From positions 25,637-89,636 of the forward strand of contig CAZDKO010000001.1 of the NCBI GenBank assembly GCA_964506075.1: 64,000 nt of DNA. Direction: 5' to 3'. How positions within the stretch are numbered: the first letter of the stretch is position 1; every line of letters begins with the position of its first letter. Source of the stretch: an uncultured bacterium. Lineage in GTDB: Bacteria; CAZDME01; JAYEMH01. The translations under genes and the position numbers were made by a program. Positions 1 to 33,340 of the stretch are shown here, one piece after another. A model generated the notes under the pieces. It saw only the letters and a list, made by a program, of their open reading frames with translations, ran no database searches and was not told the origin of the DNA.

Positions 1-171
1 CAAAACAACCGCGATAGTTTAGAAGTAGGCAGCGATACCTTTACCGGCGGGCAATATGAAATAAAATTAAGCGGACTGGACCCTAATCTTTATTTTGTCA
101 AGGTTGAAGCTTTAGATGACGAGGGCCGGGTGATTCATACCCTGATAACTTATCTTTATAAACCGGATTAA
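1..171 (+). CDS. 3' end of an ORF that begins upstream of the window (partial; function unknown)
   Basis: Open frame from position 1 to TAA at 169-171 (..QNNRDSLEVGSDTFTGGQYEIKLSGLDPNLYFVKVEALDDEGRVIHTLITYLYKPD*). It sits directly upstream of the pseudopilin genes in the same orientation. No diagnostic motif. Confidence 0.3.
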   Translation, partial: QNNRDSLEVGSDTFTGGQYEIKLSGLDPNLYFVKVEALDDEGRVIHTLITYLYKPD

Positions 172-180
172 AGACAGGAT

Positions 181-230
181 TAAGAAATAAGAAATAAGGA
201 TTAAGCGGTAAAGGAATAAGAGATTAATAA
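181..230. repeat. Heptanucleotide tandem array, TAAGNNN x about 7
   Basis: taagaaa|taagaaa|taaggat|taagcgg|taaagga|ataagag|attaata shows strict 7-nt periodicity. It is upstream of the 302 pseudopilin gene. Confidence 0.6.
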
Positions 231-241
231 AAATAAAACTT

Positions 242-277
242 AATTCTTAGAGTGAGCGTAGCGAACGTCTTAATCCT
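242..277. repeat. 36-bp element shared with 49175-49210 (inverse orientation, central 6-mers swapped); possible operator
   Basis: aattcttagAGTGAGcgtAGCGAAcgtcttaatcct. The reverse complement of 49175-49210 is aattcttagAGCGAAcaaAGTGAGcgtcttaatcct. Both lie 25-100 bp upstream of a + strand start codon. Confidence 0.5.
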
Positions 278-301
278 GATGACTGAAATAAAGGATTTAA
301 A

Positions 302-844
302 ATGAAAAGCAAAGGATTTAGTTTAGTGGAACTGCTTATTGCTCTGCTTTTGGTGACTGTCATCAGCACAGTTTTTCTGAATATTTTTAAACGCGGCGGC
401 CTGGCCTGGCAATTGGGTGACCGCCGGGTGCAGTCTTACCAGAATGCCCGGGTGATTATGGGACAATTTTTCCGGGAGCTGCCGGTGGTTTATGTGAACG
501 CCACGGAAACTTTTGTCGGCTCAGCCGACCAGATTAGGTTTTTTGCCAATCTCTGGTCAGGAGATAGCGGTGCCGAGGGACTGGTAGAATTGGGTTATCG
601 TAAAAGGTCCGGAGAATATGTTTTGGAAAGATTATATAAAACAGACCCGGCCAGCGCCGATACCTGGCGGGAGCTTGCTTTTTATTTTAAAAGTATCACC
701 TTTACTTATTATGACGGTTCTACCGCCGAAACGTCCTGGAATTCCGCGGCTAAAAACAATAAGCCGCCGTCTAAAGTGGAAATTACCGTGACTATGGAGG
801 ATGATAAAACATACACCACGGCGGTAAGTATCTTGGAGAGATAA
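302..844 (+). CDS. Minor pseudopilin with a prepilin-type N-terminal cleavage/methylation domain (GspJ/PilW-like)
   Basis: The N-terminus MKSKGFSLVELLIALLLVTVISTVF has the canonical G|F-x-L-x-E prepilin peptidase site (Glu at +5) followed by a hydrophobic helix. Length is 180 aa. It is followed by a GspK-like gene. Confidence 0.6.
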   Translation: MKSKGFSLVELLIALLLVTVISTVFLNIFKRGGLAWQLGDRRVQSYQNARVIMGQFFRELPVVYVNATETFVGSADQIRFFANLWSGDSGAEGLVELGYRKRSGEYVLERLYKTDPASADTWRELAFYFKSITFTYYDGSTAETSWNSAAKNNKPPSKVEITVTMEDDKTYTTAVSILER

Positions 845-940
845 TATTAAAGTACCAAAGTATCAAAGAGTCAGAGTGTCAGAGAATTCCTGAAAAGTTG
901 TAGGAATAAAAGGGGATTGGAAACAGAGATAGGTTAAATT

Positions 941-3900
941 ATGATTAAAACGAGATTTAAAAATCAGGGCGGGGTCATAATCATTATGGCCCTGGTGGTT
1001 CTGGTTATTGCCTCGGTGCTGGCGGTAACCTTTGCTACCAGTATGCGCCTGGAGGAAAAAACGGCCGCTACTTTTAGAAAACACGGAAAAGTTTTTTATA
1101 TCGCCCAGGCGGGGTATGAATACGCCCTGGCTATTTTGCGAAAAGATAAAAATGAAGAATCAAGCCGTCCCTACGACGCTTTGAACGAGGAATGGCGGAC
1201 GTTATTTAACGGCAGCGGCGAAGAGGAAGAACCGGCGGTCAATCTGGACGGTATCAATTCCAACGGTATAAACAGCGATGGAAAAGATGCCCGCTGGATT
1301 TATTTACACCGTGACCCGGAAGATGATGAATCTCCGTTAATCGGCCGTTTTGCCGTTTTAATCGTAGATGAAGCCAGTAAACTGAGTCTCCACGCTTCCG
1401 GTAGCGGCCAGCAAAACCAGGGCTGGACGCCTTTTGAAAACGATTTAACCAATTTAAAAAATCCTAATACCGGCGCCAGTTTGTTTGATTCTTCCACGGC
1501 GCCAAATTTAATCAATTACCGCCAGGGTGATAAAACCGGCGGCGGGGTAAACACCAAATACCCGGGTGATAGCGGTGATGACGATAGTGATAACACCCCT
1601 CTGGAAAATGACGGTATTGATAATGACGGCGACGGCGTAATTGATGAGGCTTTTGAAGGAACGAACGAGCCGGATGAATACGTCTCCCGGATTCCCTACG
1701 GTACCGGTGATGAGCTTGATTTTGCCCTGAAGCTGGTTGATGAGTTAAGAATGGTGAGTGGCATCGGGGAAACGACGACGCGGATGTGTAAGAATTTTAC
1801 CACCGTTGATGCCGGGGCTCAAACGCGATACTGGGATAGCGCCACCTCCAGCTGGGAGAGTCAGGAAAATATTAACGCCCTGACTTCAGTTGATACTCTA
1901 TTTAACCTGATGACCGGGGCCGGGATTAGCAGTGAAAATGCGGCCCGCTGGACGGCGAACACAATTGACTATGGCGACCGGGACGGTGTCCCGACGGTAA
2001 TAGAGACCGGCGGCAAAAAATATCTCGGTGTCGAAGGACTCCAGATAAATGAGGTGATGAGCTGGGTTAATCATCGGGGGGATACTTATAAGGGTCCGAT
2101 AATCCTGGATAATTTTGTCGACACCCCGACCAACTGGAATGACCCGAGCAGTTTTAGTAATAATGGCAACTGGAATAATGCTCTTTGGACGGCTCAAGGA
2201 AACGTTGACGGAGGAGAAGATACTTGGACCTGGCCCTGGGATAACGGCACCTACGACATTTATATTTATAGAGATTCAAGTTTAAACGGCCGGGATTTTC
2301 ATTATAAATTTGAAGACGGTATCAGTCCGGGCGTGGACTTGGAAGGCGACACAGATTTTTATCTGAGTGACCGGTATCTGGTTCCCGGGGTTAAAATTTC
2401 TAACGGAGAAATAAGACTAACTTTAAGGGCCAGTGTCGGGGGGGAAACCTTTAGCTGGTTCCAGTGTCTAAGTTTAAATCCCACTAATCCTAATGATCCC
2501 AATACGGGAACAAGGAGAAATAGCTTTGCCGACCCTCCTCCTGTTGGTCCGGTGCAGGACCCACCGCCGGGAGATCCCTGGGATGACAGCACATGGGCGG
2601 CCAAAGGCTGGCAAACCGGAGGAAAAAGTACCTGGGTTTGGACTGTTTCTAACGGCACTTATGATGTTTATTTATATCAGAATATAGGTTGGCCGGGCAC
2701 CAATGACTATGATTATAGGTTTGAAGAAGGTGAAGCCGGAGATATTTCGGGGACGGCTACTTTCGGCTCCAGCGGCACTAATATTTATTATCACGTCGGT
2801 AACGTGACCGTCAGCGGTGGTCAGCTTACCTTGAAACTGACGGCTTGTTACACCTGGACGAGGAGCCGCTTTGAACAAATCGGTGTTGAAGGAGCTGAAT
2901 ACGTAGAATTGGTTAACCTTTCCTCCAGTCCCATCACCATTGATAAAAGTTGGGGGATAAATGTCGGCGGGAATATTATTCTGGATAATAACACGGCTAA
3001 GATTGATTCTTCCAGCCCCGGTACCACCTATAAATTCACCTGGTTTGAAGGAGACGCGGCTACTTTCACCATTCCCGGCTCAACGGCGCCAAATTACAGT
3101 TATTTTATTGCCGCCGACAGCCGCTACGCGATGGATTACCGCCACGCCTGGGCCGATGCTTATAAAGACGGCGTCTGGGGGTCGCCGGGGAATTTGGGTA
3201 ATGAACCGGGAGATTTAGGGGTAATCGGCGATTTAGAAATATCCAACACCGGGGGAGTAAATATTTCTCTGGTTAGAGAAGTAAACGGAGAAGAAATCGT
3301 GGTTGATTTTGTCCCCTGCACCACCACTGCTTCCGGATTCGGGACTTCGGCCTGGGATACGGTCGCACCCCAGGAAGATAAAAGTGTGGAAAGGAACAGC
3401 GCTTATAAAGACGATAGCTCCTGGGCTTTAACTACCGAAGGCTGGGGACGGGGAACACCCGGGGCTGCCAATACCGGTGGTGCCTCGGTTGCCGTCGCGG
3501 TTAAGAACCGGCCCTTTGCCTCGCCGGGATTTATGACCGAGGTTTATAAAGGTACGGGGGATTACTCCACCAATAAATTGATCACTTCGGATATCAAAGA
3601 TTTCGTGAGCGTTCTCACTACCGCTTATTACCGCCTGGAAGTGGAAAATACCACTTCACCTCCGGGCTGGTCAACCGATACGGGGATGGACGGTACCCCC
3701 CGTTATCTTTCGCCTACGGCCGGCAGTAACGCCACTTTAAGCTGGACCGGCCTTCATATCCCGGACGGGACTTATAATCTTTTTGTAGCCGGCGGCATCG
3801 GCGGAAAGTTCCAGTGTCCTTCGGGCACGGCCCGAGTAATGCGGCCCGACGGCATAGTTTATGCCGGTACCGCTGCCGTCAGTAGCGGGAGTTTAACCGT

Positions 3901-4405
3901 CGGTGTTTATGGCGACGGCACCAATCTTTATTCACTGGACTATATTTTACTGGTGCCTGAAAAAGAAAGCCCGCTGCTTATCGGTAAAATCAACATCAAT
4001 ACGGCCAGCGAGCAGGTTTTAAACGCCCTTCCTCCGGCTTTCTGGACCGGGTTTTATATTATTGATTATCGAAACGGCGCCGATAATAAAGACGGGACGA
4101 CGGACGATAATCCTTTTGGAAACATTGGAGAATATCTGTCCATTACCGGATTAAGCGAGGCGCAGTTAGCCGAAGCTTTCCAGAAACAGGCCAGTCTTAT
4201 CACCGTTCATTCCGACATTTTTGAAATTATTGTCGTCGGCCAGGAAATAGAGGATTTAACCAATACAGGTATCTTTGACGACCCGGAGGCCGAAGGGAGA
4301 ACCGGGGAAGCGGACCTGGTCACCGGGAAGGAGAAAATCAGGGCCATTGTTGACCGCTCCTATGACCCACCCAGAGTATTGTATTTCCGCCGGGAACCCG
4401 AGTAA
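941..4405 (+). CDS. Giant (1154 aa) GspK/PilX-like minor pseudopilin with about 800 aa of inserted repeat and Asp-rich modules
   Basis: The N-terminus NQGGVIIIMALVVLVIASVLAVTFATSMRLEEKTAATF..IAQAGYEYALAIL matches the GspK pseudopilin N-domain (no Glu5, conserved R-x-E..A..AG). The C-terminus INTASEQVLNALPP is the GspK helix-hairpin-helix signature. The interior has two copies of a roughly 35-aa module (TWTWPWDNGTYDIYIYRDSSLNGRDFHYKFEDG and TWVWTVSNGTYDVYLYQNIGWPGTNDYDYRFEEG) and Asp-rich loops (DNDGDGVIDE, GDSGDDDSDN). Confidence 0.55.
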   Translation: MIKTRFKNQGGVIIIMALVVLVIASVLAVTFATSMRLEEKTAATFRKHGKVFYIAQAGYEYALAILRKDKNEESSRPYDALNEEWRTLFNGSGEEEEPAVNLDGINSNGINSDGKDARWIYLHRDPEDDESPLIGRFAVLIVDEASKLSLHASGSGQQNQGWTPFENDLTNLKNPNTGASLFDSSTAPNLINYRQGDKTGGGVNTKYPGDSGDDDSDNTPLENDGIDNDGDGVIDEAFEGTNEPDEYVSRIPYGTGDELDFALKLVDELRMVSGIGETTTRMCKNFTTVDAGAQTRYWDSATSSWESQENINALTSVDTLFNLMTGAGISSENAARWTANTIDYGDRDGVPTVIETGGKKYLGVEGLQINEVMSWVNHRGDTYKGPIILDNFVDTPTNWNDPSSFSNNGNWNNALWTAQGNVDGGEDTWTWPWDNGTYDIYIYRDSSLNGRDFHYKFEDGISPGVDLEGDTDFYLSDRYLVPGVKISNGEIRLTLRASVGGETFSWFQCLSLNPTNPNDPNTGTRRNSFADPPPVGPVQDPPPGDPWDDSTWAAKGWQTGGKSTWVWTVSNGTYDVYLYQNIGWPGTNDYDYRFEEGEAGDISGTATFGSSGTNIYYHVGNVTVSGGQLTLKLTACYTWTRSRFEQIGVEGAEYVELVNLSSSPITIDKSWGINVGGNIILDNNTAKIDSSSPGTTYKFTWFEGDAATFTIPGSTAPNYSYFIAADSRYAMDYRHAWADAYKDGVWGSPGNLGNEPGDLGVIGDLEISNTGGVNISLVREVNGEEIVVDFVPCTTTASGFGTSAWDTVAPQEDKSVERNSAYKDDSSWALTTEGWGRGTPGAANTGGASVAVAVKNRPFASPGFMTEVYKGTGDYSTNKLITSDIKDFVSVLTTAYYRLEVENTTSPPGWSTDTGMDGTPRYLSPTAGSNATLSWTGLHIPDGTYNLFVAGGIGGKFQCPSGTARVMRPDGIVYAGTAAVSSGSLTVGVYGDGTNLYSLDYILLVPEKESPLLIGKININTASEQVLNALPPAFWTGFYIIDYRNGADNKDGTTDDNPFGNIGEYLSITGLSEAQLAEAFQKQASLITVHSDIFEIIVVGQEIEDLTNTGIFDDPEAEGRTGEADLVTGKEKIRAIVDRSYDPPRVLYFRREPE

Positions 4406-4513
4406 TTTTTAAATAGGGCTAGCTGTACCCCATTATTTAACCAATTATTGAGTTGGTATAGCTAGCCCTATTAAACTAATGGTAAAATATTAAAAATTTT
4501 GAAAGGAGAAAGA

Positions 4514-5869
4514 ATGGAAACAAATAAAATAATTTATTCCGGCGGTATAATCTTTTTGTGTCTTTTGTTATTTATCATTATTTTTTCACCGGCTTCTTCC
4601 GCCGACGTGATTTATTTAAAAAACGGACAGAAAATGGAAGGGACGATTGAAAAGCAGGATGCAGAGAAGATTTATTTAAAAATTAAACTGGGAATAATCG
4701 GCATCAGCCGGAACCAGATTGACCGGATAGAGAAAACCGTAGAAAAAATCGCCGGGGAAGGAAAAGAGATTGAAACTGAAAAAGAAATAGTAAAGGAAGA
4801 TGATTCGGCGACCAAGAAAAAATTTGAAGAAGAGCAGATGGCAGAAGGAAAAGTTAAATATAAAGACCGCTGGGTAACTCCGGAAGAAAAGGCCATCCTG
4901 GAACTGCCTAAAATAAAAATTTCCAACCGCCGGATTTATAAAGACGGTAAATTATTTTTTATCAAGGGCATAGATTACAGCGTTAATTATCCCAAAATGA
5001 CTAATTTTAGCGATATTCCAAGAACAGTCTGGGAAAAAGATTTTAAGATGATAAAGGAATTAGGCGTAAATACCATCCGCACTTATCATCCCCTCCCGCC
5101 GGAACTGCTGGATTTAGCCGAAGAAAATGAGTTGATGGTCATAGAAGCCGTGGTTTCCCCCAACAGTGAGACAAATTATAATTCCCCGGAAGAATTAAAA
5201 AAGCTTACTGATGAAGCCGTCCGGATAGTCAAGCGGGATAAATTACGCAAATGTATTCTTATGTGGGCTATCTGGAACGACGCTCCTTTCCACTGGGAGA
5301 AAGGCGGTAACTCGGTTGAGCGTTACGGAATGGAAAAGGTAAACGGGTTTTTAGGGAAAATTTATACGGCGGTTAAGAAAGAAGATAAGAATCACCCGGT
5401 CACGGCTTCAAATATGCTTGATTTACCGGGTTCAAATCTGGGATTTGATTTTCTGGATGCTATTGGTATCAACGCTTTTATCGGTATTGCCAAAGAGACC
5501 GGCTGGTTTGAAGGTATCTATACTCAGGAAAAAGCCCGTAACGACATAGAAAAACTGAAAGAGATTTCCGAAAAATATAATAAACCCGTCTATATCGCCG
5601 AGACCGGTTACAGCACCTTCTGCCGGAGCGAAAGACAGGATAAGATAATCAGAGAACAGATTGTTGCCTGCGGAGATGAGCTTCCCGGCGTGATAATTTT
5701 TGAGTGGGCCGATGAATGGTGGAAAGCCGGAAACCCCGCGGTTCAGGATAATAACATTGAAGAACACTGGGGGATAACCGATGCCTATCGCAAACCCAAA
5801 CCCGGCTATGAGGCCGTTTCGGAAATGTTTAAATCCATCAGGACCGAATCAAAGGGATATGTAAGATAA
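4514..5869 (+). CDS. Secreted TIM-barrel glycoside-hydrolase-like protein (ETG nucleophile motif as in GH17)
   Basis: RBS aaaggag lies 6 nt upstream of ATG 4514; the track ORF starting at 4499 includes the RBS. The protein has a signal peptide, a Lys/Glu-rich linker, then GVNTIRTYHP..ILMWAIWND..YIAETGYST..FEWADEWW, which resembles the acid/base and ETGW nucleophile segments of family-17-like beta-glycanases. The family call is weak. Confidence 0.4.
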   Translation: METNKIIYSGGIIFLCLLLFIIIFSPASSADVIYLKNGQKMEGTIEKQDAEKIYLKIKLGIIGISRNQIDRIEKTVEKIAGEGKEIETEKEIVKEDDSATKKKFEEEQMAEGKVKYKDRWVTPEEKAILELPKIKISNRRIYKDGKLFFIKGIDYSVNYPKMTNFSDIPRTVWEKDFKMIKELGVNTIRTYHPLPPELLDLAEENELMVIEAVVSPNSETNYNSPEELKKLTDEAVRIVKRDKLRKCILMWAIWNDAPFHWEKGGNSVERYGMEKVNGFLGKIYTAVKKEDKNHPVTASNMLDLPGSNLGFDFLDAIGINAFIGIAKETGWFEGIYTQEKARNDIEKLKEISEKYNKPVYIAETGYSTFCRSERQDKIIREQIVACGDELPGVIIFEWADEWWKAGNPAVQDNNIEEHWGITDAYRKPKPGYEAVSEMFKSIRTESKGYVR

Positions 5870-5870
5870 A

Positions 5871-6090
5871 AGTAGTTAGTAGACAGTAGATAGTAGTCAG
5901 TAGACAGTAATTTTTAATCAGCAGGCTCTTTAATGCCTAATTCCTAAATGACTAATGACGAATGAATGACCAAATAACTAATAAGGGTACAGAAACCAGA
6001 GCACGGAGTACAAACTCGTCTGTTATCTGTTCCCTGTACTTTTTAGTTTCTTGTTTTTCTCTGTTCTCAGTACTCTGGTATCTGTAATCT
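5871..6090. repeat. Composite intergenic repeat, copy A (AGTAGNN, AATGACN and ACAGANN heptad arrays); homologous in inverse orientation to 14581-14790
   Basis: agtagtt|agtagac|agtagat|agtagtc|agtagac then cagtaatttttaatcagcaggctctttaatgcctaattcctaaatgac then aatgact|aatgacg|aatgaat then ggtacagaaaccagag. The reverse complement of 14690-14790 matches at about 85% over more than 80 nt. Confidence 0.7.
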
Positions 6091-6244
6091 TTATTTTTAT
6101 TTGACTTTTAAATTAACATATGTTATATTTATAGCACTTATATCCTCCTATATTAATGTTGATAACACTCTTAATTTTATTATGTCTGGATTGATAATTC
6201 CTCCCCAAGTACATACCGTTTTAATGAAAGGTTAATTCATTTAT

Positions 6245-7882
6245 ATGAACAAACCCAAGATTACTATCGGTGTAGATATCGGTTCAAGTTGTATTAAAGT
6301 AGTTGAATTGAAAGAAACAAAATCCGGAATAACCCTTAAACGAGCCGGCCTCATAAATACACAGCTTGACCCGGCCAATCCCCCGACTTCAAAAGGTCAA
6401 TATCTGGCCGCCACCCTGGCGAAGTTATTGGCCGTCCTTAACATAAAGAATGTTTCAATTATTACTTCTGTTCCCGGCCAGTCAGTTCTAATTCGGTTAA
6501 TCAAACTTCCCCCTATTCCCGAAGATAAGATTGAGGAAGTCATAAAATATGAAGCCCAGCAACAGGTTCCTTTTTCCCTTGACGAGGTGGTTTGGGACTA
6601 TTATTTGCTTAAGAGAAAAAAAATATTAGAAATGGAAGTGCTGCTGGTAGCGATAAAAATAAATTTAATCGGAGAGATTCAGGATAAACTCGGGCCACAC
6701 CTTAACGCCAGTATCATTGATGTGGCTCCGCTGGCTCTCTATAATTGTGTGCGGTATAACAAGGATTACGAGAACGATAAAAAAGGCGTGGTCGTCATAG
6801 ATATCGGAGCTGAATCCACCGATATTATTTTTTTTAAAGAAGAAGATGTCTGGATAAGAAGTTTTCCTCTGGGGGGGAATAGTTTTACCCAGGTTCTCCA
6901 GAAGGAATTCGGCCTTTCTTACGCTGAAGCGGAACGCATTAAAAAAGGAGGGCTTAAGGACTATCCGGATGAAGAAGTTAAAAGGGTTACCAAGCCGATT
7001 ATTGAAGACTTGATAGTAGAGGTTCAGCACGCTATCGGCTATTATCGAAGCCAGGTTGAAGGATTAACTATTGGAGAGGTGATTTTAACCGGCGGTAACA
7101 GCCGGCTCCCGAATCTGGACCATTTTTTTAGCGAGAGTTTAGGTTTGGAAGTAAAGCATATTGACTGTTTTAAACGAATAAAAAGGGAACCAAATACGAA
7201 AATTTTTGTCGAAGATAAATGGGATGAAATTGAACCTTACCAGCATCTCTTCGGAGTAGCGGCCGGTCTGGCCCTGAGAGATAAAACCAAATGTGCGGTA
7301 GAAATTAACCTTCTCTCCCAGGAACTGGTAAAAAAGAAGACCAGTAAGCGTAAAAAAGAGTCTATAGCCGTTACGTTAATCATTTTTTTTATTATTCTGG
7401 GAAGTGGTTTTTTTATGCTGCGCCGTAGTTTCTCACACTGGCAGGCGAAACTTACTGAAACCCAGAGGCTTTATAATAAAGAATATAGTGTTTACCGGCC
7501 GGAAATAGAAACTTTAAAAAAAGAAAAAAGCCTTCTGGAAGGCCAGGTCGAAGTGATGTATCAACTTCTAGGCAAGAAAATGATGTGTTTAGAGTTATGT
7601 AGAGCTATAGGGAAGAATCTGACCGAAGAAATCTGGATAGACAGTTTGTCTTTTCCCAGAGATTCTGAGAGGGCGGAAGAAAAGGATAAGGAATTTCTTT
7701 TTTTAAAGGGTAAAGCGATGTCATTTGACGTAATTAATGAATTTATGCAGAAGTTAAAAGCGGATACCGCCTATATATCCAAAATAGAACCTTTGGCATC
7801 TAATTCCATAAAAATAGATGATAAAGAATTTATTGAGTTTTTTTTAGAAGGAAAACTTGCTTTGAAAGTAGACAGTAGATAG
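6245..7882 (+). CDS. pilM: Type IV pilus assembly PilM-PilN fusion protein
   Basis: The N-terminus KITIGVDIGSSCIKVVELKETKSGITLKRAG is the PilM actin-like ATPase start. At about residue 345 EINLLSQE matches the PilN INLLP motif. A single TM helix follows (IAVTLIIFFIILGSGFFML) and then a coiled-coil periplasmic region, as in PilN. The last codons overlap the AGTAGNN repeat. Confidence 0.65.
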   Translation: MNKPKITIGVDIGSSCIKVVELKETKSGITLKRAGLINTQLDPANPPTSKGQYLAATLAKLLAVLNIKNVSIITSVPGQSVLIRLIKLPPIPEDKIEEVIKYEAQQQVPFSLDEVVWDYYLLKRKKILEMEVLLVAIKINLIGEIQDKLGPHLNASIIDVAPLALYNCVRYNKDYENDKKGVVVIDIGAESTDIIFFKEEDVWIRSFPLGGNSFTQVLQKEFGLSYAEAERIKKGGLKDYPDEEVKRVTKPIIEDLIVEVQHAIGYYRSQVEGLTIGEVILTGGNSRLPNLDHFFSESLGLEVKHIDCFKRIKREPNTKIFVEDKWDEIEPYQHLFGVAAGLALRDKTKCAVEINLLSQELVKKKTSKRKKESIAVTLIIFFIILGSGFFMLRRSFSHWQAKLTETQRLYNKEYSVYRPEIETLKKEKSLLEGQVEVMYQLLGKKMMCLELCRAIGKNLTEEIWIDSLSFPRDSERAEEKDKEFLFLKGKAMSFDVINEFMQKLKADTAYISKIEPLASNSIKIDDKEFIEFFLEGKLALKVDSR

Positions 7883-7915
7883 TAAACAGTAGTTAGTAGT
7901 CAGTAGTAAATAGTC
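7867..7915. repeat. AGTAGNN heptad tandem array (about 7 units)
   Basis: agtagac|agtagat|agtaaac|agtagtt|agtagtc|agtagta|aatagtc. This is the same word family as 5871-5905 and 14745-14790. Confidence 0.65.
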
Positions 7916-7952
7916 GGTTACCGAGCGACTAGATACGAGATGCGGAGTGTGA

Positions 7953-8723
7953 ATGGCAAAAAATAAATTTGATAGTTCTCTTTTAATAGTCATCGCCATA
8001 ATGATAGTGGTTATGACGGTTTATTTTTTAGGCTTGGTGCGTCCTTATTTATCAAAACGTAAAAAGATAGTTAAAGAGATTAATCAAAAAATTGATGAAC
8101 TGGAATTATTCAGGAAGGAAAAAGGCGGAGTTACTTCTCAGGAATTAATTGATTCCCTTAGGGCAGACCAGGATGATTACCGCAAAAAAATAGAATTTTT
8201 AAAGAAATATCTTGGGGATTTCAAGGTTGCTTTCCCTTCGGGGGTTACCCAGAAAGGTTTATTTTTTAAAGAGCAGGCGTATCAAAGTGAACGCCGTTTA
8301 AGAGAAAATGCCGAGAATAAAGGGATGGTCTTGCCTGATTTTCTGGGTTTTGATAAAGGGGTTCCTAAGGAGGAAAACGCAGAATTGCTGCTCTGGGAAT
8401 TAATGGCCGTTGAGAAGATTGTCGGGACTTTAATTGAAAGCGGAATAGCGTCTTTATCTTCGCTGAACATAAGAACAGTAGAGGAACGCACGCAGTCAGA
8501 GGTGATTTATGATGTTATTCCTGTTGAAATTAAATGCCAGGGACGCACGCAGCCTTTACTTAAATTTGTTTATGATTTAAGCCGCGCTGATTATCCCCTC
8601 ATAATAGAGAAAGCGGATATTCAGAAGGCCATGTCGACCGGAAAAGATAATTTAGAGATAAATTTAACCATAGATGGTATCCGTTTAAAAAAATCTGATG
8701 GAGATAAAGAGAAAAACATATAG
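7953..8723 (+). CDS. pilO: PilO-like pilus assembly protein (N-terminal TM helix plus coiled coil)
   Basis: One N-terminal TM helix (LLIVIAIMIVVMTVYFLGLV), a coiled-coil segment and a C-terminal alpha/beta region. It sits between the pilM-N fusion and pilP-pilQ. The call rests on position and architecture, not a strong motif. Confidence 0.4.
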   Translation: MAKNKFDSSLLIVIAIMIVVMTVYFLGLVRPYLSKRKKIVKEINQKIDELELFRKEKGGVTSQELIDSLRADQDDYRKKIEFLKKYLGDFKVAFPSGVTQKGLFFKEQAYQSERRLRENAENKGMVLPDFLGFDKGVPKEENAELLLWELMAVEKIVGTLIESGIASLSSLNIRTVEERTQSEVIYDVIPVEIKCQGRTQPLLKFVYDLSRADYPLIIEKADIQKAMSTGKDNLEINLTIDGIRLKKSDGDKEKNI

Positions 8724-9168
8724 GGTGGCGGTATCTTTAATTCTGGCCGGGATTATGGGCGCTAAAATCGTTCAGGCCGAAGAGATCGGTTTTCAACCCA
8801 AAATTTTTGACTTACCCCGGCTGGAAAAGATTAAAAATGAATCCTTTGATAATTTTTGGCAGGATATTAACGAAAGGGATATTTTTTCTTCTCCAAAATT
8901 AGATAAGGTGTCTCAGGAAGTAGTTGCTCCGCCTCAAGAAAAGGTTAAGATACCGGAAACGAATTTAATCTATCGGGGAAGCCTCGTGGTGGGAGAAGAA
9001 CAATTGGCTATGATTGAAGTAGTCAAAGACGGTATGAATAAAAGTTACTTTTTGAGGAAAGGAGAATATATAGAAGGGTTTAGAATAGTTGACATCAATA
9101 GGGAATTTGTGTTAATCTATAGTCAGAAGAAAGGCGAACAAAAGCTTTTTCTTCTGGAGGATAATTAA
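8698..9168 (+). CDS. PilP-like small periplasmic pilus assembly protein (candidate)
   Basis: Signal peptide MEIKRKTYRVAVSLILAGIMGAKIVQA|EE. It is a 156-aa protein immediately upstream of the secretin and overlaps the pilO-like gene by 26 nt. Confidence 0.35.
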   Translation: MEIKRKTYRVAVSLILAGIMGAKIVQAEEIGFQPKIFDLPRLEKIKNESFDNFWQDINERDIFSSPKLDKVSQEVVAPPQEKVKIPETNLIYRGSLVVGEEQLAMIEVVKDGMNKSYFLRKGEYIEGFRIVDINREFVLIYSQKKGEQKLFLLEDN

Positions 9169-9187
9169 AAACGACGGAGGTTAGAGG

Positions 9188-11803
9188 ATGAAGAAAGCAA
9201 CGGTTCTTTTGGTAGTTGTGGGGCTAATGCTGCTGGGGGGGGCTTTAGGCTGGAGTGTATCCAGCAATGAGGTTATAAGTATAGGAGTTGAGAAACTCCC
9301 TGACAAAGACTTAGTAACCATCAGAACTGGGACGGAGGTTCATTATACTTATTTTAAATTAAAAAGCAGTAATCTGGAAGAGCCGGACCGGATCGTAATT
9401 GATGTATTAGAAACCGGCCGGACCCGGACGCCGAAGGTCATCCCGGTCGGGACAGAAGTAATTGAGCAGATTCGCACCGGTGTTTACGAAGACAAACAGA
9501 TACGGGTGGTAATTGACTTAAAAGGCGATTATTCTTATAAAGTAGGGAAAAAAGGTAATGATATTATGGTTTATGTGGATAATCCGGTCAGAGCCGCCGT
9601 TCCCGCCCGGGATATACAAAAGGGAACCTTAGCTGAAGACGTTTCCAGTCCTCTTTCGCAGGAAGAAATGGTTCGCCGGTATTATCTGAAAGGTAAAGAG
9701 CTTTATATTGAAGGAAAACAGTACGAAGCTAAAAAAGAATTTGAAAAGGTTTTGACCCTTGACCCTGCACATGTCTGGGCGAAGAGGTATCTGGCGGAGA
9801 TTAAAGAAGAAGAAGGCGCTTTAAAAACACAAGCTAAAGAATTATTGTCTGAACAGATAGGAGAGCTGCAAACATCCCAGGAAAGGGAGTTTATGCAGCA
9901 TTATGGCGCCGGTAAAGCTTATTACGACGAGAAAAGATATTTTGAAGCTATGGAAGAATTTAAAAAAGCTAATGAGCTATTGCCCGACCATAGATTCAGC
10001 GAAGAAGTTAATGCTTATATTTTAAAGTCACAGAAAAATTTACAAAAGACCCGAAGCGATGAAAAATCGGCACGGATTCAATATTTAATCGATGCCGGCC
10101 GAAGCGCCTATATGGCTAATGATTATTCCCGGGCTAAAGAATTATGGAGCAAGATTTTAGAGGTGGACCCGTATAATACACAGGCCTCGGCTTTGATTGC
10201 CAGGGCTGAAAAAGCAATGCTTGACAAAGAAGGGAAAAACGTTGAGGCTCAAAAAAGAATGGAGGAAAAAGCCCGGATTTTAGATGTAGAAAAGAATTTT
10301 TTACGAAAGCCTTATAAAGTTGGACCGGAAAAACCTGAATTAGATATATTGACGGCCAAGGTTGCCGGTGTCGGCAGAAAAGAAAAGGTTTCACGTTTTC
10401 TGGGAGAAAAAGCGACCCAGAAAGTTACTTTAGATTTTAAAGAAGCCAATATCAGGGATGTGATTCAGCAGCTTCATCAATGGACCGGGGTGAATATTAT
10501 TTTAGATGAAGCGGTTTTTAGCGATATAGAACCCACTTTAACCATTTATCTTACTGACGTAACCTTGATTGAAGCTTTGGAGTATATTATAAAAGCCAAA
10601 GGGCTTGATTACCAGTTAACGGAGGGGGTTATTTTTGTGACCACCCCGGAAAGACTCCAGGCCGAAGAAAAAATGGAGACCAGGATTTATCATTTACGCA
10701 AGGGTTTAGCTACCCACACTGTATTTAGTGAGCAGGCGATGGAGCCCAGAAAAGCGGTGGAAAAGGAGGTTTATGCGGAACAAGCCACCGTTCAAAAAGA
10801 AATCACTCTTAAGGACATTCTGGAAAAGAGTATTTCCTGGCCCGAAGGAAGCAAAATTACTCTCATTGAAAGGACCGGTTCTTTAATTGTCACCAACACT
10901 ACTTCTAATTTAATGATTATAGAGGATATTTTAAAAGAATTTGATGCTTCCCCCATCCAGATAATGATTGAGGCCCGTTTTGTTGAAGTCGGCGAAGGCG
11001 GTTTAAAAGAATTAGGGATGGAATGGAAACTGGATACAGACTGGGGTTTTGACCGTGTTTCCGGCAAGGGTAATAAAATTCAGGTTAACAAAGGACAAGT
11101 CAGCGAATTTCCTAAATTAGGCAGCCACAGATTTATTAAAGATATAGATGGTTCAACAATTGATAGTCTTGGTTCAATTGATTTGACCGTCGCCGGCATA
11201 CTTACCACTCCCCAGTTTGAAGCCGTTCTTCATGCGATTGAACAGGACGAAAAGACGAATCTTCTTTCTTCACCCAAGGTTACTACCATTAATGGGCAGG
11301 GAGCGGTTATAAAGGTCGTCCGGGAATATATCTATCCCACTGCTTATAAAACGACTGCTGCTGAATACAATTCAGCCGGCGTCAAGGTAAAAGATGCCAC
11401 CTCCACCCCGGAAAAATTCGTTACCCGTGATGCCGGGATACTGCTTAAGGTTGTACCCCGGGTAGGTATGGATAAAAAAATGATTAATCTAACGATTGTC
11501 CCGGAAGTCAGCGAATTAGGGGAATGGTATGATTACGGCACCGTAGAAACGCCGTATAAACAGCCGTTCTTTGATTCCAGGAAATGTATCACCAGTATTG
11601 TCGTTAACGATGGAGACACCGTAGTTCTGGGAGGATTAATCAAGGAGACGGTTGAGCATATTCGGGACAAAGTTCCTATTTTAGGAGACATTCCTCTTCT
11701 GGGTACGGCGTTCCGCCGCGATTACGACCGGGTAACCAAAAACAATTTAATCGTTTTTGTTACGGCGCGTATTATTGAACCGACCGGGGAAAATTACCGT
11801 TAA
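9188..11803 (+). CDS. pilQ: Type IV pilus secretin PilQ with an N-terminal AMIN domain and an inserted TPR region
   Basis: Signal peptide, then an AMIN-like beta domain (..IRVVIDLKGDYSYKV..). TPR-like repeats follow (YYLKGKELYIEGKQYEAKKEFEKVLTLDP; AGKAYYDEKRYFEAMEEFKKANELLPDH; GRSAYMANDYSRAKELWSKILEVDPYN). The C-terminal secretin signature is VPILGDIPLLGTAFRRDYDRVTKNNLIVFVTARIIE. Confidence 0.8.
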   Translation: MKKATVLLVVVGLMLLGGALGWSVSSNEVISIGVEKLPDKDLVTIRTGTEVHYTYFKLKSSNLEEPDRIVIDVLETGRTRTPKVIPVGTEVIEQIRTGVYEDKQIRVVIDLKGDYSYKVGKKGNDIMVYVDNPVRAAVPARDIQKGTLAEDVSSPLSQEEMVRRYYLKGKELYIEGKQYEAKKEFEKVLTLDPAHVWAKRYLAEIKEEEGALKTQAKELLSEQIGELQTSQEREFMQHYGAGKAYYDEKRYFEAMEEFKKANELLPDHRFSEEVNAYILKSQKNLQKTRSDEKSARIQYLIDAGRSAYMANDYSRAKELWSKILEVDPYNTQASALIARAEKAMLDKEGKNVEAQKRMEEKARILDVEKNFLRKPYKVGPEKPELDILTAKVAGVGRKEKVSRFLGEKATQKVTLDFKEANIRDVIQQLHQWTGVNIILDEAVFSDIEPTLTIYLTDVTLIEALEYIIKAKGLDYQLTEGVIFVTTPERLQAEEKMETRIYHLRKGLATHTVFSEQAMEPRKAVEKEVYAEQATVQKEITLKDILEKSISWPEGSKITLIERTGSLIVTNTTSNLMIIEDILKEFDASPIQIMIEARFVEVGEGGLKELGMEWKLDTDWGFDRVSGKGNKIQVNKGQVSEFPKLGSHRFIKDIDGSTIDSLGSIDLTVAGILTTPQFEAVLHAIEQDEKTNLLSSPKVTTINGQGAVIKVVREYIYPTAYKTTAAEYNSAGVKVKDATSTPEKFVTRDAGILLKVVPRVGMDKKMINLTIVPEVSELGEWYDYGTVETPYKQPFFDSRKCITSIVVNDGDTVVLGGLIKETVEHIRDKVPILGDIPLLGTAFRRDYDRVTKNNLIVFVTARIIEPTGENYR

Positions 11804-11820
11804 AAATATTTTCCCGGTTG
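11776..11820 (+). terminator. Candidate intrinsic terminator overlapping the pilQ stop
   Basis: ccggggaaaat..(13-nt loop)..attttcccgg forms an imperfect 10-bp stem and is followed by ttgattttgtt. Confidence 0.35.
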
Positions 11821-11990
11821 ATTTTGTTAAATGTTTAACTGCCGTTAGCCGACTTAGTTAGATAGTTAGATTTGAAACGTTCGTAATTTTTTGATTTATT
11901 TGATTTGTCATGCCGTAGATTTATCTCTGGCGAAAAGTTTCCAAAACCTACAGCTCTTCAAATTACTCGGTTTATTCATTAATAAGAACC

Positions 11991-26349: not shown

Positions 26350-26355
26350 TATGGT

Positions 26356-27240: not shown

Positions 27241-27260
27241 AGGGTCCTCTTTTAAAAAAA

Positions 27261-27782
27261 TTATTCAAATTCAGATTTTTTCCCCAGAAGGATAATTTTT
27301 AAGAAGATTAAAAATCTGGCCATTATTAAAACGAGGGGTTTCCCGATAAAAAGTTTATTATTATCCAGTTTGACCTGTCCGGTTTGTATTAATCTGGAAA
27401 TCCTTCGTTCAATGATTTCCTTGGCGTTATAACGGCTTAAAATTTCATTTAAGGTTAGCCCGCCGGCAGATTCTTTTAATTCTCTTAAGATTCTCGTCCG
27501 CCGGGCGGTTTCACCCAGATTAATAAAATGGAAATAGCAGTATCCTAAAGCCGAATAGGCAATGAAATCCGCCAAGAAATTACCGGCCACGTCTTTTAAA
27601 GCCGTTTTTTCTCCGGTAATTTCAAGTAAAGATAAAGCCGATAAACCGGCAATAAATCCCCAAAATATAGATTTAAGGAGCCCTGATTGCGGACGAATCC
27701 TGTAATGTAAAATCTGGCTGATGACGTTTACCGCCAGGGCAATTAAAGGGATAGAAACGTTTAAACAATCTTTCCAGGTCAA
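27261..27782 (-). CDS. Small membrane protein with a winged-helix-like core; paralog of 27785-28306
   Basis: N-terminal TM helices, then TRILRELKESAGGLTLNEILSRYNAKEIIERRISRLIQTGQVKLDNNKLF, then a C-terminal TM helix. Confidence 0.35.
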   Translation of the reverse strand: MTWKDCLNVSIPLIALAVNVISQILHYRIRPQSGLLKSIFWGFIAGLSALSLLEITGEKTALKDVAGNFLADFIAYSALGYCYFHFINLGETARRTRILRELKESAGGLTLNEILSRYNAKEIIERRISRLIQTGQVKLDNNKLFIGKPLVLIMARFLIFLKIILLGKKSEFE

Positions 27783-27784
27783 AT

Positions 27785-28306: not shown

Positions 28307-28340
28307 CGTGATTCTTTCCCGGATAAATTTTTAAATAAAT

Positions 28341-29444: not shown

Positions 29445-29458
29445 ATTGTATTTTGTAT

Positions 29459-32261: not shown

Positions 32262-32270
32262 AATTTACAA

Positions 32271-33338: not shown

Positions 33339-33340
33339 GG

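What the first reader, a model, noticed from the sequence alone, without database searches (positions are those of the whole stretch)
302..11803. Hybrid locus of T2SS-type minor pseudopilins plus a secreted glycanase-like enzyme plus T4P PilM-N-O-P-Q, with no ATPase, platform or major pilin in the window
Gene order is pseudopilin(J-like), giant K-like pseudopilin, secreted GH-like TIM barrel, pilMN fusion, pilO-like, pilP-like, pilQ. The alignment subcomplex and secretin are of type IVa pilus type (AMIN-domain secretin, INLLP PilN motif). The pseudopilins are GspJ/K-like. A hydrolase inside the operon suggests either a cargo enzyme or a matrix-remodelling function coupled to the fibre.
Basis: partly seen in the sequence, partly recalled or inferred. 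Interest (0 to 1): 0.55.

Follow-up and report, generated by a model that had tools for sequence, protein, structure and literature searches.

The report
Pilus gene cluster with lodged glycanase
This is the pilin, alignment-complex and outer-membrane-pore part of a type IV pilus machine of a kind already known in Omnitrophota and related bacteria; a sugar-cleaving enzyme gene sits between its two operons in one narrow lineage only, so it is a modest variant and not a new hybrid system.

Summary
The genes are real and in the stated order. They are a J-like minor pilin, a 1154-aa K/PilX-like minor pilin, a secreted TIM-barrel glycanase-like protein, a PilM-PilN fusion, a PilO/GspM-like protein, a PilP/GspC-like protein, and a PilQ secretin with AMIN and TPR domains.

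The "hybrid" reading is a naming artefact. T4aP minor pilins are homologues of GspH-K. The best family matches for the fusion, the PilO-like protein and the secretin are the Akkermansia Amuc_1101/1100/1098 pilus families.

The missing major pilin is a window-edge effect. The ORF cut at base 171 is an I-like prepilin, and relatives carry a GspG-type pilin a few genes upstream. The ATPases and platform lie elsewhere in this clade, but they are adjacent in a more distant Omnitrophota cluster that includes PilT.

pilMN-O-P-Q has its own promoter, conserved in four lineages, so the glycanase gene lies between two transcription units. The enzyme is related to GH157 but has Asp at the acid/base position. 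Most relatives are PilZ-anchored and sit in non-pilus contexts. The gene is present in all three assessable close relatives and absent from the 78 other related pilus loci. One distant locus holds a beta-helix protein with the same N-terminal domain in the same slot. Functional coupling to the pilus is possible but unproven.

The parts
1..171 (+). 3' end of an I-like minor (pre)pilin gene, cut by the window edge
   Evidence: The 56 translated residues are 61% identical to the C-terminus of the 161-aa prepilin-motif protein of L089 that directly precedes the J-like gene.
302..844 (+). J-like (GspJ/PilW-type) minor pilin, 180 aa
   Evidence: N_methyl plus T2SSJ in Pfam. It is 59% identical to the L089 orthologue and 30% identical to those of L003 and L088.
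941..4405 (+). Giant K-like (GspK/PilX-type) minor pilin, 1154 aa, with a roughly 900-aa beta-rich insertion; a putative tip adhesin
   Evidence: PilX_N in Pfam and T2SS_GspK in NCBIfam (E 3e-12, sub-threshold), with weak HHH_3 near the C-terminus. Only 11 homologues were found, so it evolves fast. The AF2 model is poor (pLDDT 58). It gives weak domain-level hits to XcpX/GspK, the lamin-tail domain and CBM6/35/61, which are leads only.
4412..4471 (+). Strong hairpin with an 18-bp stem, directly after the K-like stop codon
   Evidence: RNA fold of -31.5 kcal/mol, z = -4.8. It is unique in the window and not conserved in relatives.
4514..5869 (+). Sec-exported GH157-related clan GH-A TIM-barrel glycanase-like protein (451 aa from ATG 4514; the ORF opens at TTG 4499). 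It has a signal/anchor helix, a small Lepto_7_Nterm-type beta domain and a linker before the catalytic domain.
   Evidence: Pfam GH2_C. NCBIfam Lepto_7_Nterm at aa 22-77. AF2 pLDDT 90.5. Foldseek top hit is GH157 9fz9 at E 5e-20, and the family profile hits 9fz9 at E 4.7e-30. Nucleophile E368 is conserved, and the acid/base position holds D261 in all 41 close homologues aligned.
5984..6046 (+). Terminator-like hairpin followed by a U-rich tract, downstream of the GH gene
   Evidence: RNA fold of -24.6 kcal/mol, z = -2.0. This is modest support.
6101..6129 (+). Sigma-70-type promoter with an extended -10 element (TTGACT, 17 nt, TGnTATATT) for pilMN-O-P-Q
   Evidence: Found by the promoter scan. 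The motif ATTTGACTTtT...TATGyTATAyTTA is invariant in the window, L003, L089 and L172, while the flanking intergenic DNA does not align.
6245..7882 (+). PilM-PilN fusion (GspL-like architecture), 545 aa
   Evidence: PilM_2 at E 1e-44 over the full model and weak PilN. The best NCBIfam hit is Amuc_1101_fam at E 8.5e-88. There are 1401 homologues, mostly 500-800-aa fusions in PVC phyla, Omnitrophota and Hydrogenedentes.
7953..8723 (+). PilO/GspM-like bitopic protein (Amuc_1100-family-like), 256 aa
   Evidence: T2SSM_b in Pfam above its cut-off. Amuc_1100_fam at E 9e-12 and GspM at E 4e-4. The orthologues in L003, L089 and L172 carry PF28028 Amuc_1100 hits.
8698..9168 (+). PilP/GspC-HR-like periplasmic protein with a signal peptide, 156 aa
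   Evidence: Weak GspC_delta hit (E 0.0018). Three remote homologues give weak T2SSC hits over the same profile region. Its position between the PilO-like gene and the secretin is conserved, and distant relatives carry two tandem copies of the module. There is no PDB sequence hit.
9188..11803 (+). PilQ-type secretin, 871 aa: AMIN, TPR repeats, STN/N0, N-domain and secretin core
   Evidence: Pfam. Amuc_1098_fam at E 7e-78, GspD at 2e-62 and PilQ at 3.5e-58, all sub-threshold. PDB PilQ chains match from N0 onward.

Best explanation
**What the locus is.** It is the distal two-thirds of a type IVa-pilus-like machine of the kind common in Omnitrophota and the PVC superphylum. It is the same broad kind as the Akkermansia Amuc_1098-1101 cluster.

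**Organisation.** There are two transcription units:
1. A pilin operon. It begins upstream of the window with a GspG-type major pilin and H/I-like minor pilins. Inside the window it continues with the J-like pilin and a giant K/PilX-like pilin that presumably caps the fibre.
2. pilMN-pilO-pilP-pilQ, driven by its own conserved sigma-70 promoter. The PilM-N fusion and the PilO-like protein would form the inner-membrane alignment complex. The PilP-like protein would link that complex to the AMIN/TPR-bearing PilQ pore. These roles are inferred from homology.

The motor ATPases and the platform protein are encoded elsewhere in this clade.

**The glycanase gene.** Between the two units sits a gene acquired once in the ancestor of this narrow clade. 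It encodes a Sec-exported, GH157-related TIM-barrel enzyme with Glu as nucleophile and Asp at the acid/base position.

**Most likely role (inferred).** The enzyme is made together with the pilins and cuts or remodels a beta-glucan-type polymer in the envelope, in the matrix or on a target cell surface. That would help the glycan-binding pilus tip pass through or engage. It would be an accessory, not a part of the machine.
For: **Identity of the machine**
- Pfam and NCBIfam assignments.
- PDB PilQ chains match better and over more of the protein than GspD chains.
- A complete homologous Omnitrophota cluster carries a PilT-size ATPase, PilB with an MshEN domain, PilC, a T2SSG pilin, a J-like pilin, the PilMN fusion and a secretin (L088).
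- T4aP is reported in nearly all Omnitrophota (PMC10066038).
- The Akkermansia cluster is described as a type IV pili cluster (PMC10688800).

**Window edge**
- The truncated ORF is the orthologue of the L089 I-like prepilin.
- T2SSG pilins lie 3-4 genes upstream in L003, L089 and L173.

**Two transcription units**
- The promoter is conserved in four lineages.
- Hairpins flank the GH gene.

**The GH enzyme**
- Confident AF2 model.
- GH157 is the best hit by both structure and profile.
- The catalytic columns are conserved as described.

**Single old acquisition under constraint**
- The GH is present in the window, L003/L009 and L089.
- Its pairwise identity is 64-69%, which tracks PilMN (68-74%) and PilQ (63-71%).

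**Hints of coupling to the pilus**
- In the distant locus L013 the same slot, between the K-like pilin and PilMN, holds a secreted beta-helix (pectate-lyase-fold) protein with the same N-terminal domain. An HMM built without L013 hits it at E 7.6e-9, and it is the only non-GH ORF hit below E 0.01 among 9032 ORFs.
- The L013 K-like pilin carries a PA14 domain.
- The window's K-like pilin gives weak CBM-like hits.
Against: - The GH is absent within 10 kb in 78 of the 80 PilMN loci from genome representatives.
- None of 80 GH-related metagenome loci lies next to PilMN.
- More distant family members (44-47% identity) sit in unrelated contexts (L006, L008). Many are PilZ-TM-coiled-coil-anchored forms, so the family's basic job does not need a pilus.
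- The junction after the K-like gene is an insertion hot spot. It holds a DUF4143 ATPase in L003, a Y1 transposase-like gene in L089, two small ORFs in L173 and nothing in the window.
- The GH is separated from pilMN by a promoter, so co-regulation with the machine genes is not shown.
- The K-like model is of low confidence.
- The substrate, the enzyme's localisation and its activity with Asp at the acid/base position are all untested.
- No PilT or PilB of this genome was seen, so retractile T4aP behaviour is inferred from relatives only.
Confidence: 0.5

Rival explanations
1. The glycanase gene is a passenger. It landed in a permissive gap between two pilus operons and does the same pilus-independent job as its relatives elsewhere, namely remodelling an envelope or matrix glycan. 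It has no functional link to the fibre.
For: - The slot after the K-like gene repeatedly holds unrelated or mobile genes.
- The GH is bracketed by hairpins and followed by an independent promoter.
- Family members occur in unrelated neighbourhoods, and short signal-peptide forms exist outside pilus loci (L006, L090-L094).
- The GH is absent from the 78 other homologous pilus loci.
Against: - The gene is retained in the same place and orientation in three lineages that have diverged to about 65-70% protein identity. Its divergence matches the core machine genes, while neighbouring inserts come and go.
- L013 independently has a different carbohydrate-active-type protein with the same N-terminal domain in the same slot, tightly spaced with gaps of 5 and 117 nt.
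Confidence: 0.33
2. The cluster works as a type II secretion system. A GspG-type pseudopilus with a GspH-K tip, a GspL-like PilM-N fusion, a GspM-like protein, a GspC-like protein and the secretin would push folded proteins out. The adjacent glycanase would be its cargo, as pullulanase PulA is for the Klebsiella Pul system.
For: - The major pilin of relatives is a clear T2SSG match (E 7e-20) and the next gene hits GspH.
- The gene order G-H-I-J-K-(GH)-L-M-C-D mirrors gsp operons.
- T2SSM_b is above its cut-off, and there are GspK and GspC-type hits.
- No PilT is linked in this clade.
- The GH has a signal peptide, and T2SS substrates are often encoded next to their system (established knowledge).
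Against: - The secretin is PilQ-like, with an AMIN domain.
- The cytoplasmic domain is a full-length PilM, and no GspL-family (T2SSL) model appears among the hits.
- Homologous Omnitrophota clusters with the same GspG-type pilin include PilT-size ATPases.
- Most GH family members are inner-membrane-anchored through a PilZ-TM-coiled-coil region and could not be secreted cargo.
- The GH is missing from nearly all homologous systems.
Confidence: 0.12

Closest known systems
Type IVa pilus clusters of Omnitrophota (Seymour et al. 2023, PMC10066038); example here: L088
   Same: A GspG-type major pilin, a J-like minor pilin, a PilM-N fusion, PilO-like and PilP-like genes, and a TPR-associated secretin. 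Such clusters are reported in nearly all genomes of the phylum.
   Different: In the window's clade the ATPases and platform are not linked to the cluster. The K-like pilin is giant. TPR and the secretin form one polypeptide, whereas they are separate ORFs in L088. A glycanase gene sits between the two operons.
Akkermansia muciniphila Amuc_1098-Amuc_1102 'type IV pili' cluster (PMC10688800)
   Same: The best-scoring NCBIfam families for the fusion, the PilO-like protein and the secretin are Amuc_1101, Amuc_1100 and Amuc_1098, in the same gene order.
   Different: All scores are far below the equivalog cut-offs (296 vs 650, 45 vs 180 and 262 vs 750 bits). In Verrucomicrobia-type loci the gene upstream of the fusion encodes a roughly 200-aa secreted protein, not pilins or a glycanase.
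Pseudomonas/Myxococcus T4aP: PilMNOPQ plus the FimU-PilVWX minor pilins
   Same: A PilM actin-like domain, the INLL motif, bitopic PilN/PilO-like proteins, a PilP-like linker, an AMIN-bearing PilQ, and a four-member minor-pilin set with a K/PilX-like member.
   Different: PilM and PilN are fused. The major pilin is GspG-type. No PilY1 is seen. TPR repeats (the pilotin PilF/PilW is a TPR protein) are built into the secretin.
Canonical T2SS (Gsp/Pul/Xcp), with an adjacent glycosidase substrate such as PulA
   Same: The G-H-I-J-K-L-M order, a fused L-type architecture, a GspM-type hit and a neighbouring exported glycoside-hydrolase-like gene.
   Different: The secretin and the cytoplasmic domain are PilQ-type and PilM-type. 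No GspE or GspF is nearby. Relatives have PilT.
GH157 endo-beta-1,3-glucanase (LaGH157, PDB 9fz9/9g4n) and other clan GH-A TIM barrels (GH2, GH158)
   Same: The fold and sequence profile match. The nucleophile motif TE(F/T)GYS and the C-terminal DxWWKxG...EExxG motifs are shared.
   Different: The acid/base Glu of the NE motif is Asp (WNDAPF) in all 41 close homologues aligned. The enzyme also has an extra N-terminal Lepto_7_Nterm-type domain, and relatives have a PilZ-TM-coiled-coil anchor.
Periplasmic glycan-trimming enzymes encoded in polymer-export loci (AlgL, PMC8829089; PslG, BcsZ), and secretin-dependent slime export (PMC12475490)
   Same: An exported glycan-cleaving enzyme encoded beside an envelope-spanning export machine. 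Relatives have a c-di-GMP link through PilZ.
   Different: No polysaccharide synthase or export genes are adjacent, and the enzyme belongs to a different family.
Verru_Chthon cassette (TIGR02596-02600): a prepilin-type gene set with a roughly 1300-aa protein A
   Same: A minor-pilin-like set that ends in a giant GspK-like protein. There are weak hits to protein A and protein C.
   Different: Scores are two orders of magnitude below the cut-offs (20 vs 332 bits), so this is a resemblance only.

Membership tests
Type IVa pilus system (T4aP) | Alignment subcomplex PilM, PilN, PilO and PilP | tested here: met
   PilM_2 at E 1e-44 and TIGR01175 pilM at 161.7 bits (cut-off 133). PilN is weak. The PilO position holds a T2SSM_b/Amuc_1100-type protein. 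The PilP position holds a weak GspC/T2SSC-type protein.
Type IVa pilus system (T4aP) | PilQ secretin with AMIN domain(s) | tested here: met
   AMIN at 30.6 bits (cut-off 20.5) and Secretin at E 9e-39. PDB PilQ chains are the best hits and match from N0 onward. TIGR02515 scores 197.6 bits, below its 284 cut-off.
Type IVa pilus system (T4aP) | Extension and retraction ATPases (PilB, PilT) and the platform PilC | tested here: not met
   None are in the 64-kb window or next to the syntenic loci L003 and L089. They are present beside the homologous cluster in L088 and L074. The rest of this genome could not be searched.
Type IVa pilus system (T4aP) | Major pilin plus a set of four minor pilins | tested here: met
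   I-like (cut), J-like and K-like genes are in the window. G-type and H-type pilins lie upstream in the orthologous loci L003, L089 and L173. The major pilin is GspG-type, not PilA-type.
Type II secretion system (T2SS) | GspD secretin of T2SS type (N0-N3, no AMIN) | tested here: not met
   AMIN and TPR are present. TIGR02517 scores 211 bits against a 351 cut-off. GspD structures match only N3 plus the secretin core.
Type II secretion system (T2SS) | GspL (cytoplasmic domain fused to a periplasmic domain) and GspM | tested here: inconclusive
   The architecture is fused like GspL, but the sequence family is PilM and no T2SSL hit appears. The T2SSM_b hit is above its cut-off.
Type II secretion system (T2SS) | GspE and GspF, and absence of PilT | not testable with these tools
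   The ATPase and platform genes of this genome lie outside the window and outside all recovered contigs.
Amuc_1098-1101 PVC pilus-like cluster | Equivalog-level matches to Amuc_1101, Amuc_1100 and Amuc_1098 | tested here: not met
   These are the best-scoring families, but the scores are 295.7/650, 45/180 and 262.4/750 bits against the cut-offs. The window's proteins are distant relatives, not members.
GH157 (clan GH-A retaining glycosidases) | (beta/alpha)8 barrel with the nucleophile Glu on strand 7 | tested here: met
   AF2 model with pLDDT 90.5. 9fz9 is the top hit. E368 in ETGYS aligns with the nucleophile motif TEFGYS of 9fz9.
GH157 (clan GH-A retaining glycosidases) | Acid/base Glu in the N-E motif after strand 4 | tested here: not met
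   The motif is WNDAPF (D261) in all 41 close homologues aligned. The 10 remote GH2_C-type homologues keep GNE.
GH157 (clan GH-A retaining glycosidases) | Endo-beta-1,3-glucanase activity | not testable with these tools
   This needs an enzyme assay.
Verru_Chthon cassette | Matches to TIGR02600 (protein A) and TIGR02599 (protein C) at their cut-offs | tested here: not met
   20.1 vs 332 bits and 24 vs 256 bits, covering the N-terminal pilin helix only.

The most novel reading that the evidence does not exclude
In this lineage and in L013, the pilus could be a glycan-targeting device. A giant tip pilin carrying carbohydrate-binding modules would be paired with a secreted carbohydrate-active enzyme: the GH157-like barrel here, a pectate-lyase-fold beta-helix in L013. 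The shared Lepto_7_Nterm-type N-terminal domain would dock the enzyme to the machine or let it be exported through it. That would make this a type IV pilus that also delivers interchangeable glycan-degrading cargo, for example to breach or grip the surface of a host cell.
Probability: 0.12. Interest if true: 0.6.

Novelty: new variant of a known kind. Interest (0 to 1): 0.3.

Why it matters
Omnitrophota are uncultured nanobacteria suspected of host-dependent or predatory lifestyles, and type IV pili are their main candidate attachment organelle. Knowing that this locus is an ordinary member of that pilus class prevents a false 'hybrid system' annotation. It also ties the locus to the Akkermansia Amuc_1100 cluster.

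Three by-products may be of more use than the locus itself:
- An Omnitrophota-wide, GH157-related enzyme family with Asp at the acid/base position, often anchored to the membrane through a PilZ (c-di-GMP receptor) domain.
- A conserved promoter for pilMNOPQ.
- Two independent cases of carbohydrate-active-type proteins with a shared N-terminal domain placed between the tip-pilin gene and pilMN.

If the last of these reflects function, it would point to glycan recognition and cleavage as part of how these cells engage surfaces.

Tried and rejected
1. **Recovering the DNA upstream of the window.** Exact-protein look-ups gave only 5-kb Logan contigs or nothing. The 132-kb NCBI contig could not be fetched, so the upstream content is inferred from orthologous loci.
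2. **Naming the organism.** Cluster look-up returned no names. 'Omnitrophota' rests on the names attached to the nearest GH and PilM homologues.
3. **Looking for an RNA element.** Rfam, including c-di-GMP riboswitches, gave no match at E <= 1 over 1-12500.
4. **Sequence-level PDB hits.** The PilO-like and PilP-like proteins gave only chance-level matches, both as single sequences and as a profile. The K-like protein also gave nothing.
5. **Fold of the K-like pilin.** Only 11 homologues exist. The AF2 model has pLDDT 58, so its Foldseek hits (GspK, lamin-tail, CBM6/35/61 at E 0.01-0.1) are kept as leads only.
6. **REP-like element.** The hairpin at 4412-4471 might have been a REP-like element tied to the Y1 transposase seen in L089, but it is unique in the window and absent from relatives.
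7. **L172 as a fourth test of GH presence.** The contig ends 255 nt upstream of pilMN, inside the promoter region, so it is uninformative. Its 42-aa 'gene' is not a GH C-terminus.
8. **'Hybrid T2SS/T4P' reading.** Rejected as explained above.
9. **GH as a peptidoglycan-clearing enzyme, like BfpH or VirB1.** Considered and set aside. Those enzymes have lysozyme-like folds, whereas this is a clan GH-A barrel closest to beta-1,3-glucanases.

Full report
**1. The observation**

The region 302-11803 holds seven consecutive ORFs on the + strand. Profile searches assign them as follows.
- 302-844 (180 aa) is a prepilin with a T2SSJ domain.
- 941-4405 (1154 aa) has a PilX_N pilin helix, a sub-threshold GspK match and a weak helix-hairpin-helix hit near its C-terminus.
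- 4499-5869 is a Glyco_hydro_2_C-type TIM barrel behind a hydrophobic N-terminal helix.
- 6245-7882 (545 aa) is a full-length PilM domain followed by INLLS, a transmembrane segment and a weak PilN domain.
- 7953-8723 (256 aa) hits T2SSM_b, Amuc_1100 and GspM.
- 8698-9168 (156 aa) gives only a weak GspC hit.
- 9188-11803 (871 aa) is a secretin with AMIN, TPR and STN/N0 domains and the secretin core.

The remaining 52 kb encode housekeeping, glycosylation and arginine-biosynthesis genes. They contain no GspE/PilB/PilT-type Walker A or GExRD motif.
- The likely start of the glycanase gene is ATG 4514, behind an AAGGAG site, which matches the 451-aa database entry P0001.
- The PilN motif reads INLLS here.
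- The window starts inside the pilin operon.

**2. The window edge**

The first 171 bases end an ORF. Its 56 residues are 61% identical to the C-terminus of a 161-aa prepilin-motif protein that precedes the J-like gene in the closest relative, L089. Three related contigs show what lies upstream:
- L089: K-like pilin 61% identical, glycanase 68%.
- L003/L009: glycanase 64%.
- L173.

In each, the same cluster begins a few genes further upstream with a 137-144-aa pilin. That pilin is a clear T2SSG match (E 7e-20 in L003), and H-like and I-like prepilins follow it. In L003 the genes upstream of the pilins are MetRS and TatD, so the ATPase and platform are not linked in this clade. Downstream synteny (PolA exonuclease, PolA, CoaE, Rho, MgtE) is shared by the window, L003 and L172. 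'No ATPase or platform' is real, but only for this clade.

**3. What kind of machine it is**

The PilM-N fusion has more than 1400 homologues. Most are 500-800-aa fusions from Verrucomicrobia, Kiritimatiellae, Lentisphaerae, Planctomycetes, Hydrogenedentes, Auribacterota and Omnitrophota. In 80 loci recovered from species-representative genomes, a secretin gene follows a few kilobases downstream wherever the contig extends far enough.

NCBIfam's best families for the fusion, the PilO-like protein and the secretin are Amuc_1101, Amuc_1100 and Amuc_1098. All score well below the equivalog cut-offs. The orthologues of the 256-aa protein carry precomputed PF28028 Amuc_1100 hits. These names come from the Akkermansia muciniphila 'type IV pili' cluster Amuc_1098-1102 (PMC10688800).

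The secretin matches solved PilQ structures from the N0 domain onward (best E 3e-41). GspD structures match only N3 plus the core.

A more distant Omnitrophota locus, L088, has the same module directly behind a full motor set. Its J-like pilin is 30% identical to the window's and its fusion 29%. The locus carries:
- a partial ATPase and a 356-aa PilT-size ATPase;
- a 574-aa PilB/GspE with an MshEN domain;
- a PilC/GspF;
- a T2SSG-type pilin.

Seymour et al. report type-4a pili in 135 of 141 Velamenicoccia genomes and in most genomes of the other Omnitrophota classes (PMC10066038).

It is established that the T4aP minor pilins FimU, PilV, PilW and PilX are homologues of GspH, I, J and K. It is also established that GspL corresponds to PilM plus PilN, GspM to PilO, and the GspC HR domain to PilP. 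Given this, 'T2SS-type pseudopilins plus T4P PilMNOPQ' is not a hybrid. It is the normal appearance of this pilus class under Pfam names.

The 156-aa protein is assigned to the PilP/GspC-HR type on three modest grounds:
- its own weak GspC_delta hit (E 0.0018);
- three remote homologues, found by exhaustive search, that each give weak T2SSC hits over the same profile region;
- its conserved position, with distant relatives carrying two tandem copies of the same module.

It has no PDB sequence match.

**4. Transcription units**

The intergenic DNA between the glycanase gene and pilMN is 375 nt in the window. It does not align among relatives except for one block, ATTTGACTTtT, 17 nt, TATGyTATAyTTA. 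This block is invariant in the window, L003, L089 and L172. It coincides with the best promoter-scan hit on the + strand, TTGACT-17-TATATT with an upstream TG at 6101-6129.

A hairpin followed by a U-rich tract lies just upstream at 5984-6046 (z = -2.0). A much stronger hairpin with an 18-bp stem (z = -4.8) follows the K-like stop codon at 4412-4471. That hairpin is unique to this genome.

pilMN-O-P-Q is therefore most likely its own operon. The glycanase gene lies at the 3' end of, or just after, the pilin operon, and not inside a single operon. No Rfam family matches the region.

**5. The glycanase-like protein**

An AlphaFold model built on 51 sequences is confident (pLDDT 90.5). It shows an N-terminal helix (residues 7-29), a five-stranded small domain (36-78), a helical linker and an eight-stranded barrel.

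The small domain matches NCBIfam Lepto_7_Nterm (E 8.8e-10). The barrel's best structural neighbour is the GH157 endo-beta-1,3-glucanase of Labilibaculum antarcticum (9fz9, E 5e-20), followed by GH2 beta-glucuronidases. A profile of the family finds the same GH157 chain by sequence alone (E 4.7e-30), sharing the TE(F/T)GYS nucleophile motif and C-terminal motifs.

In all 41 close homologues aligned, the clan GH-A 'N-E' acid/base motif reads WNDAPF, so Asp replaces Glu (D261). Ten remote GH2_C-type homologues keep GNE. The nucleophile Glu (E368) is nearly invariant. I do not know of a characterised clan GH-A family with Asp at this position; that statement rests on my own knowledge and was not tested. 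Activity and substrate are therefore inferred only.

Most family members (about 700 aa) carry an N-terminal PilZ domain with RxxxR and DxSxxG motifs. A transmembrane helix and a long coiled coil follow, before the small domain and the barrel. This suggests a periplasmic enzyme under c-di-GMP control. Short signal-peptide forms like the window's also occur outside pilus loci (L006).

**6. Is the glycanase part of the pilus system?**

Evidence for a link:
- The gene is present, co-oriented and in the same slot in all three assessable lineages of the clade.
- Its pairwise identity (64-69%) tracks that of PilMN (68-74%) and PilQ (63-71%). This fits one old acquisition followed by purifying selection.
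- The gene directly upstream of it varies: nothing in the window, a DUF4143 ATPase in L003 and a Y1 transposase-like gene in L089. The glycanase stays while its neighbours come and go.
- In the distant locus L013 (fusion 34% identical), the slot between a 963-aa K-like pilin and pilMN holds a 444-aa secreted protein. It has the same N-terminal domain but a right-handed beta-helix (pectate-lyase-fold) body. The L013 K-like pilin carries PA14 and HHH_3 domains.
- An HMM of the small domain built without L013 hits that protein at E 7.6e-9. It is the only ORF outside the GH family hit below E 0.01 among 9032 ORFs from 175 loci.

Evidence against a link:
- The other 78 PilMN loci have no homologue of the glycanase within 10 kb.
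- None of 80 GH-related metagenome loci is next to PilMN. One remote homologue lies about 8 kb from a secretin on the opposite strand.
- More distant family members (44-47% identity) lie among unrelated genes.
- The slot is clearly permissive for insertions. L173 has two small ORFs there.

**7. The giant K-like pilin**

It has only 11 detectable homologues and a higher G+C content than its neighbours (0.46-0.50 against about 0.38-0.42). L003's 914-aa version is alignable only in the first ~67 residues (38% identity).

Its AlphaFold model is poor (pLDDT 58). Domain-level Foldseek hits to XcpX/GspK, the lamin-tail domain and CBM6/35/61 modules (E 0.01-0.1) are leads only. Some support comes from relatives: PA14 in the L013 protein and a lamin-tail domain (PF00932) in homologue P0226. 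A fast-evolving, modular, probably glycan-binding tip subunit is a reasonable inference, but it is not shown.

**8. Verdict**

The locus is a member of a known kind, an Omnitrophota/PVC T4aP-like machine, seen without its 5' end. My confidence in that identification is about 0.85.

The glycanase gene is a stable addition confined to one lineage. I rate the possibilities as follows:
- It assists the pilus by clearing or cutting a glycan when pilins are made: about 0.4.
- It is a passenger with no functional link: about 0.33.
- The cluster works as a T2SS and the glycanase is its cargo: about 0.12.

The most novel reading still open is a pilus that delivers interchangeable carbohydrate-active cargo through a shared N-terminal domain. 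It rests on two loci and deserves a wider survey before any claim is made.

Noticed in passing
window 44986-47709 (+): A 907-aa protein fuses an N-terminal clan GH-A TIM barrel (weak GH10/GH42/GH39 hits) to a sulfatase plus SGSH_C domain, behind a signal-like N-terminus. It is a second exported carbohydrate-active-type gene in the window and possibly acts on sulfated glycans.
   Followed up: partly
window 50450-51658 and 51816-53090 (+): Two adjacent paralogous PEP-CTERM proteins with many 'ISGNxVVW / INNNGxVVW' repeats, which look like a beta-propeller. This implies an exosortase-type sorting system, which is usually linked to exopolysaccharide production.
   Followed up: partly
window 21134-39996 (-): Three tandem paralogous PMT-like membrane proteins with C-terminal TPR repeats (570, 556 and 622 aa). 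They are followed by radical-SAM, glycosyltransferase, DUF2079 and YfhO-like genes, forming a large envelope-glycosylation-type cluster.
   Followed up: partly
window 11991-14518 (+): DNA polymerase I is split into a separate 5'-3' exonuclease ORF (289 aa) and a polymerase ORF (555 aa) that overlap by 10 nt. The same split is called in L003 and L172, so it is a lineage trait and not a frameshift error.
   Followed up: partly
P0019, P0033 and about 40 other homologues (L008:10001-12097, L093): An Omnitrophota-wide architecture of PilZ (RxxxR and DxSxxG motifs intact), a TM helix, a roughly 100-aa coiled coil, a Lepto_7_Nterm-type domain and a GH157-like barrel with Asp at the acid/base position. 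It looks like a c-di-GMP-sensing, membrane-anchored periplasmic glycanase family that appears undescribed.
   Followed up: partly
L013:2995-4329: A secreted 444-aa protein with the same N-terminal small domain as the glycanase but a pectate-lyase-fold beta-helix body. It sits between a PA14-bearing K-like pilin and pilMN.
   Followed up: yes
window 4412-4471: A hairpin with an 18-bp stem right after the K-like stop codon (z = -4.8). It is unique in the window and absent from relatives. The same junction holds a Y1 transposase-like gene in L089 and a DUF4143 ATPase in L003.
   Followed up: yes
window 5871-5965: Just after the glycanase stop codon there is short repetitive DNA (AGTAG(A/T)CAGTAG-type units, then TAATGAC/GAATGA units). 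L089 has a (GGGAAAA)n run at the equivalent place. Its meaning is unknown.
   Followed up: no
window 9188-11803 versus L088:13138-16693: The window's secretin carries AMIN and TPR domains and the secretin core in one polypeptide. L088 instead has a separate 384-aa TPR protein followed by two paralogous 400-aa and 387-aa secretin-core ORFs. This suggests fusion or fission of a pilotin-like TPR module with PilQ.
   Followed up: no
L171:1-4543: In a relative of the K-like pilin cluster, PilC is followed by a sigma-54 activator response regulator, a second response regulator and an FHA-GAF histidine kinase, all upstream of the pilin genes. This arrangement resembles PilS/PilR-type control of pilin expression.
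   Followed up: no
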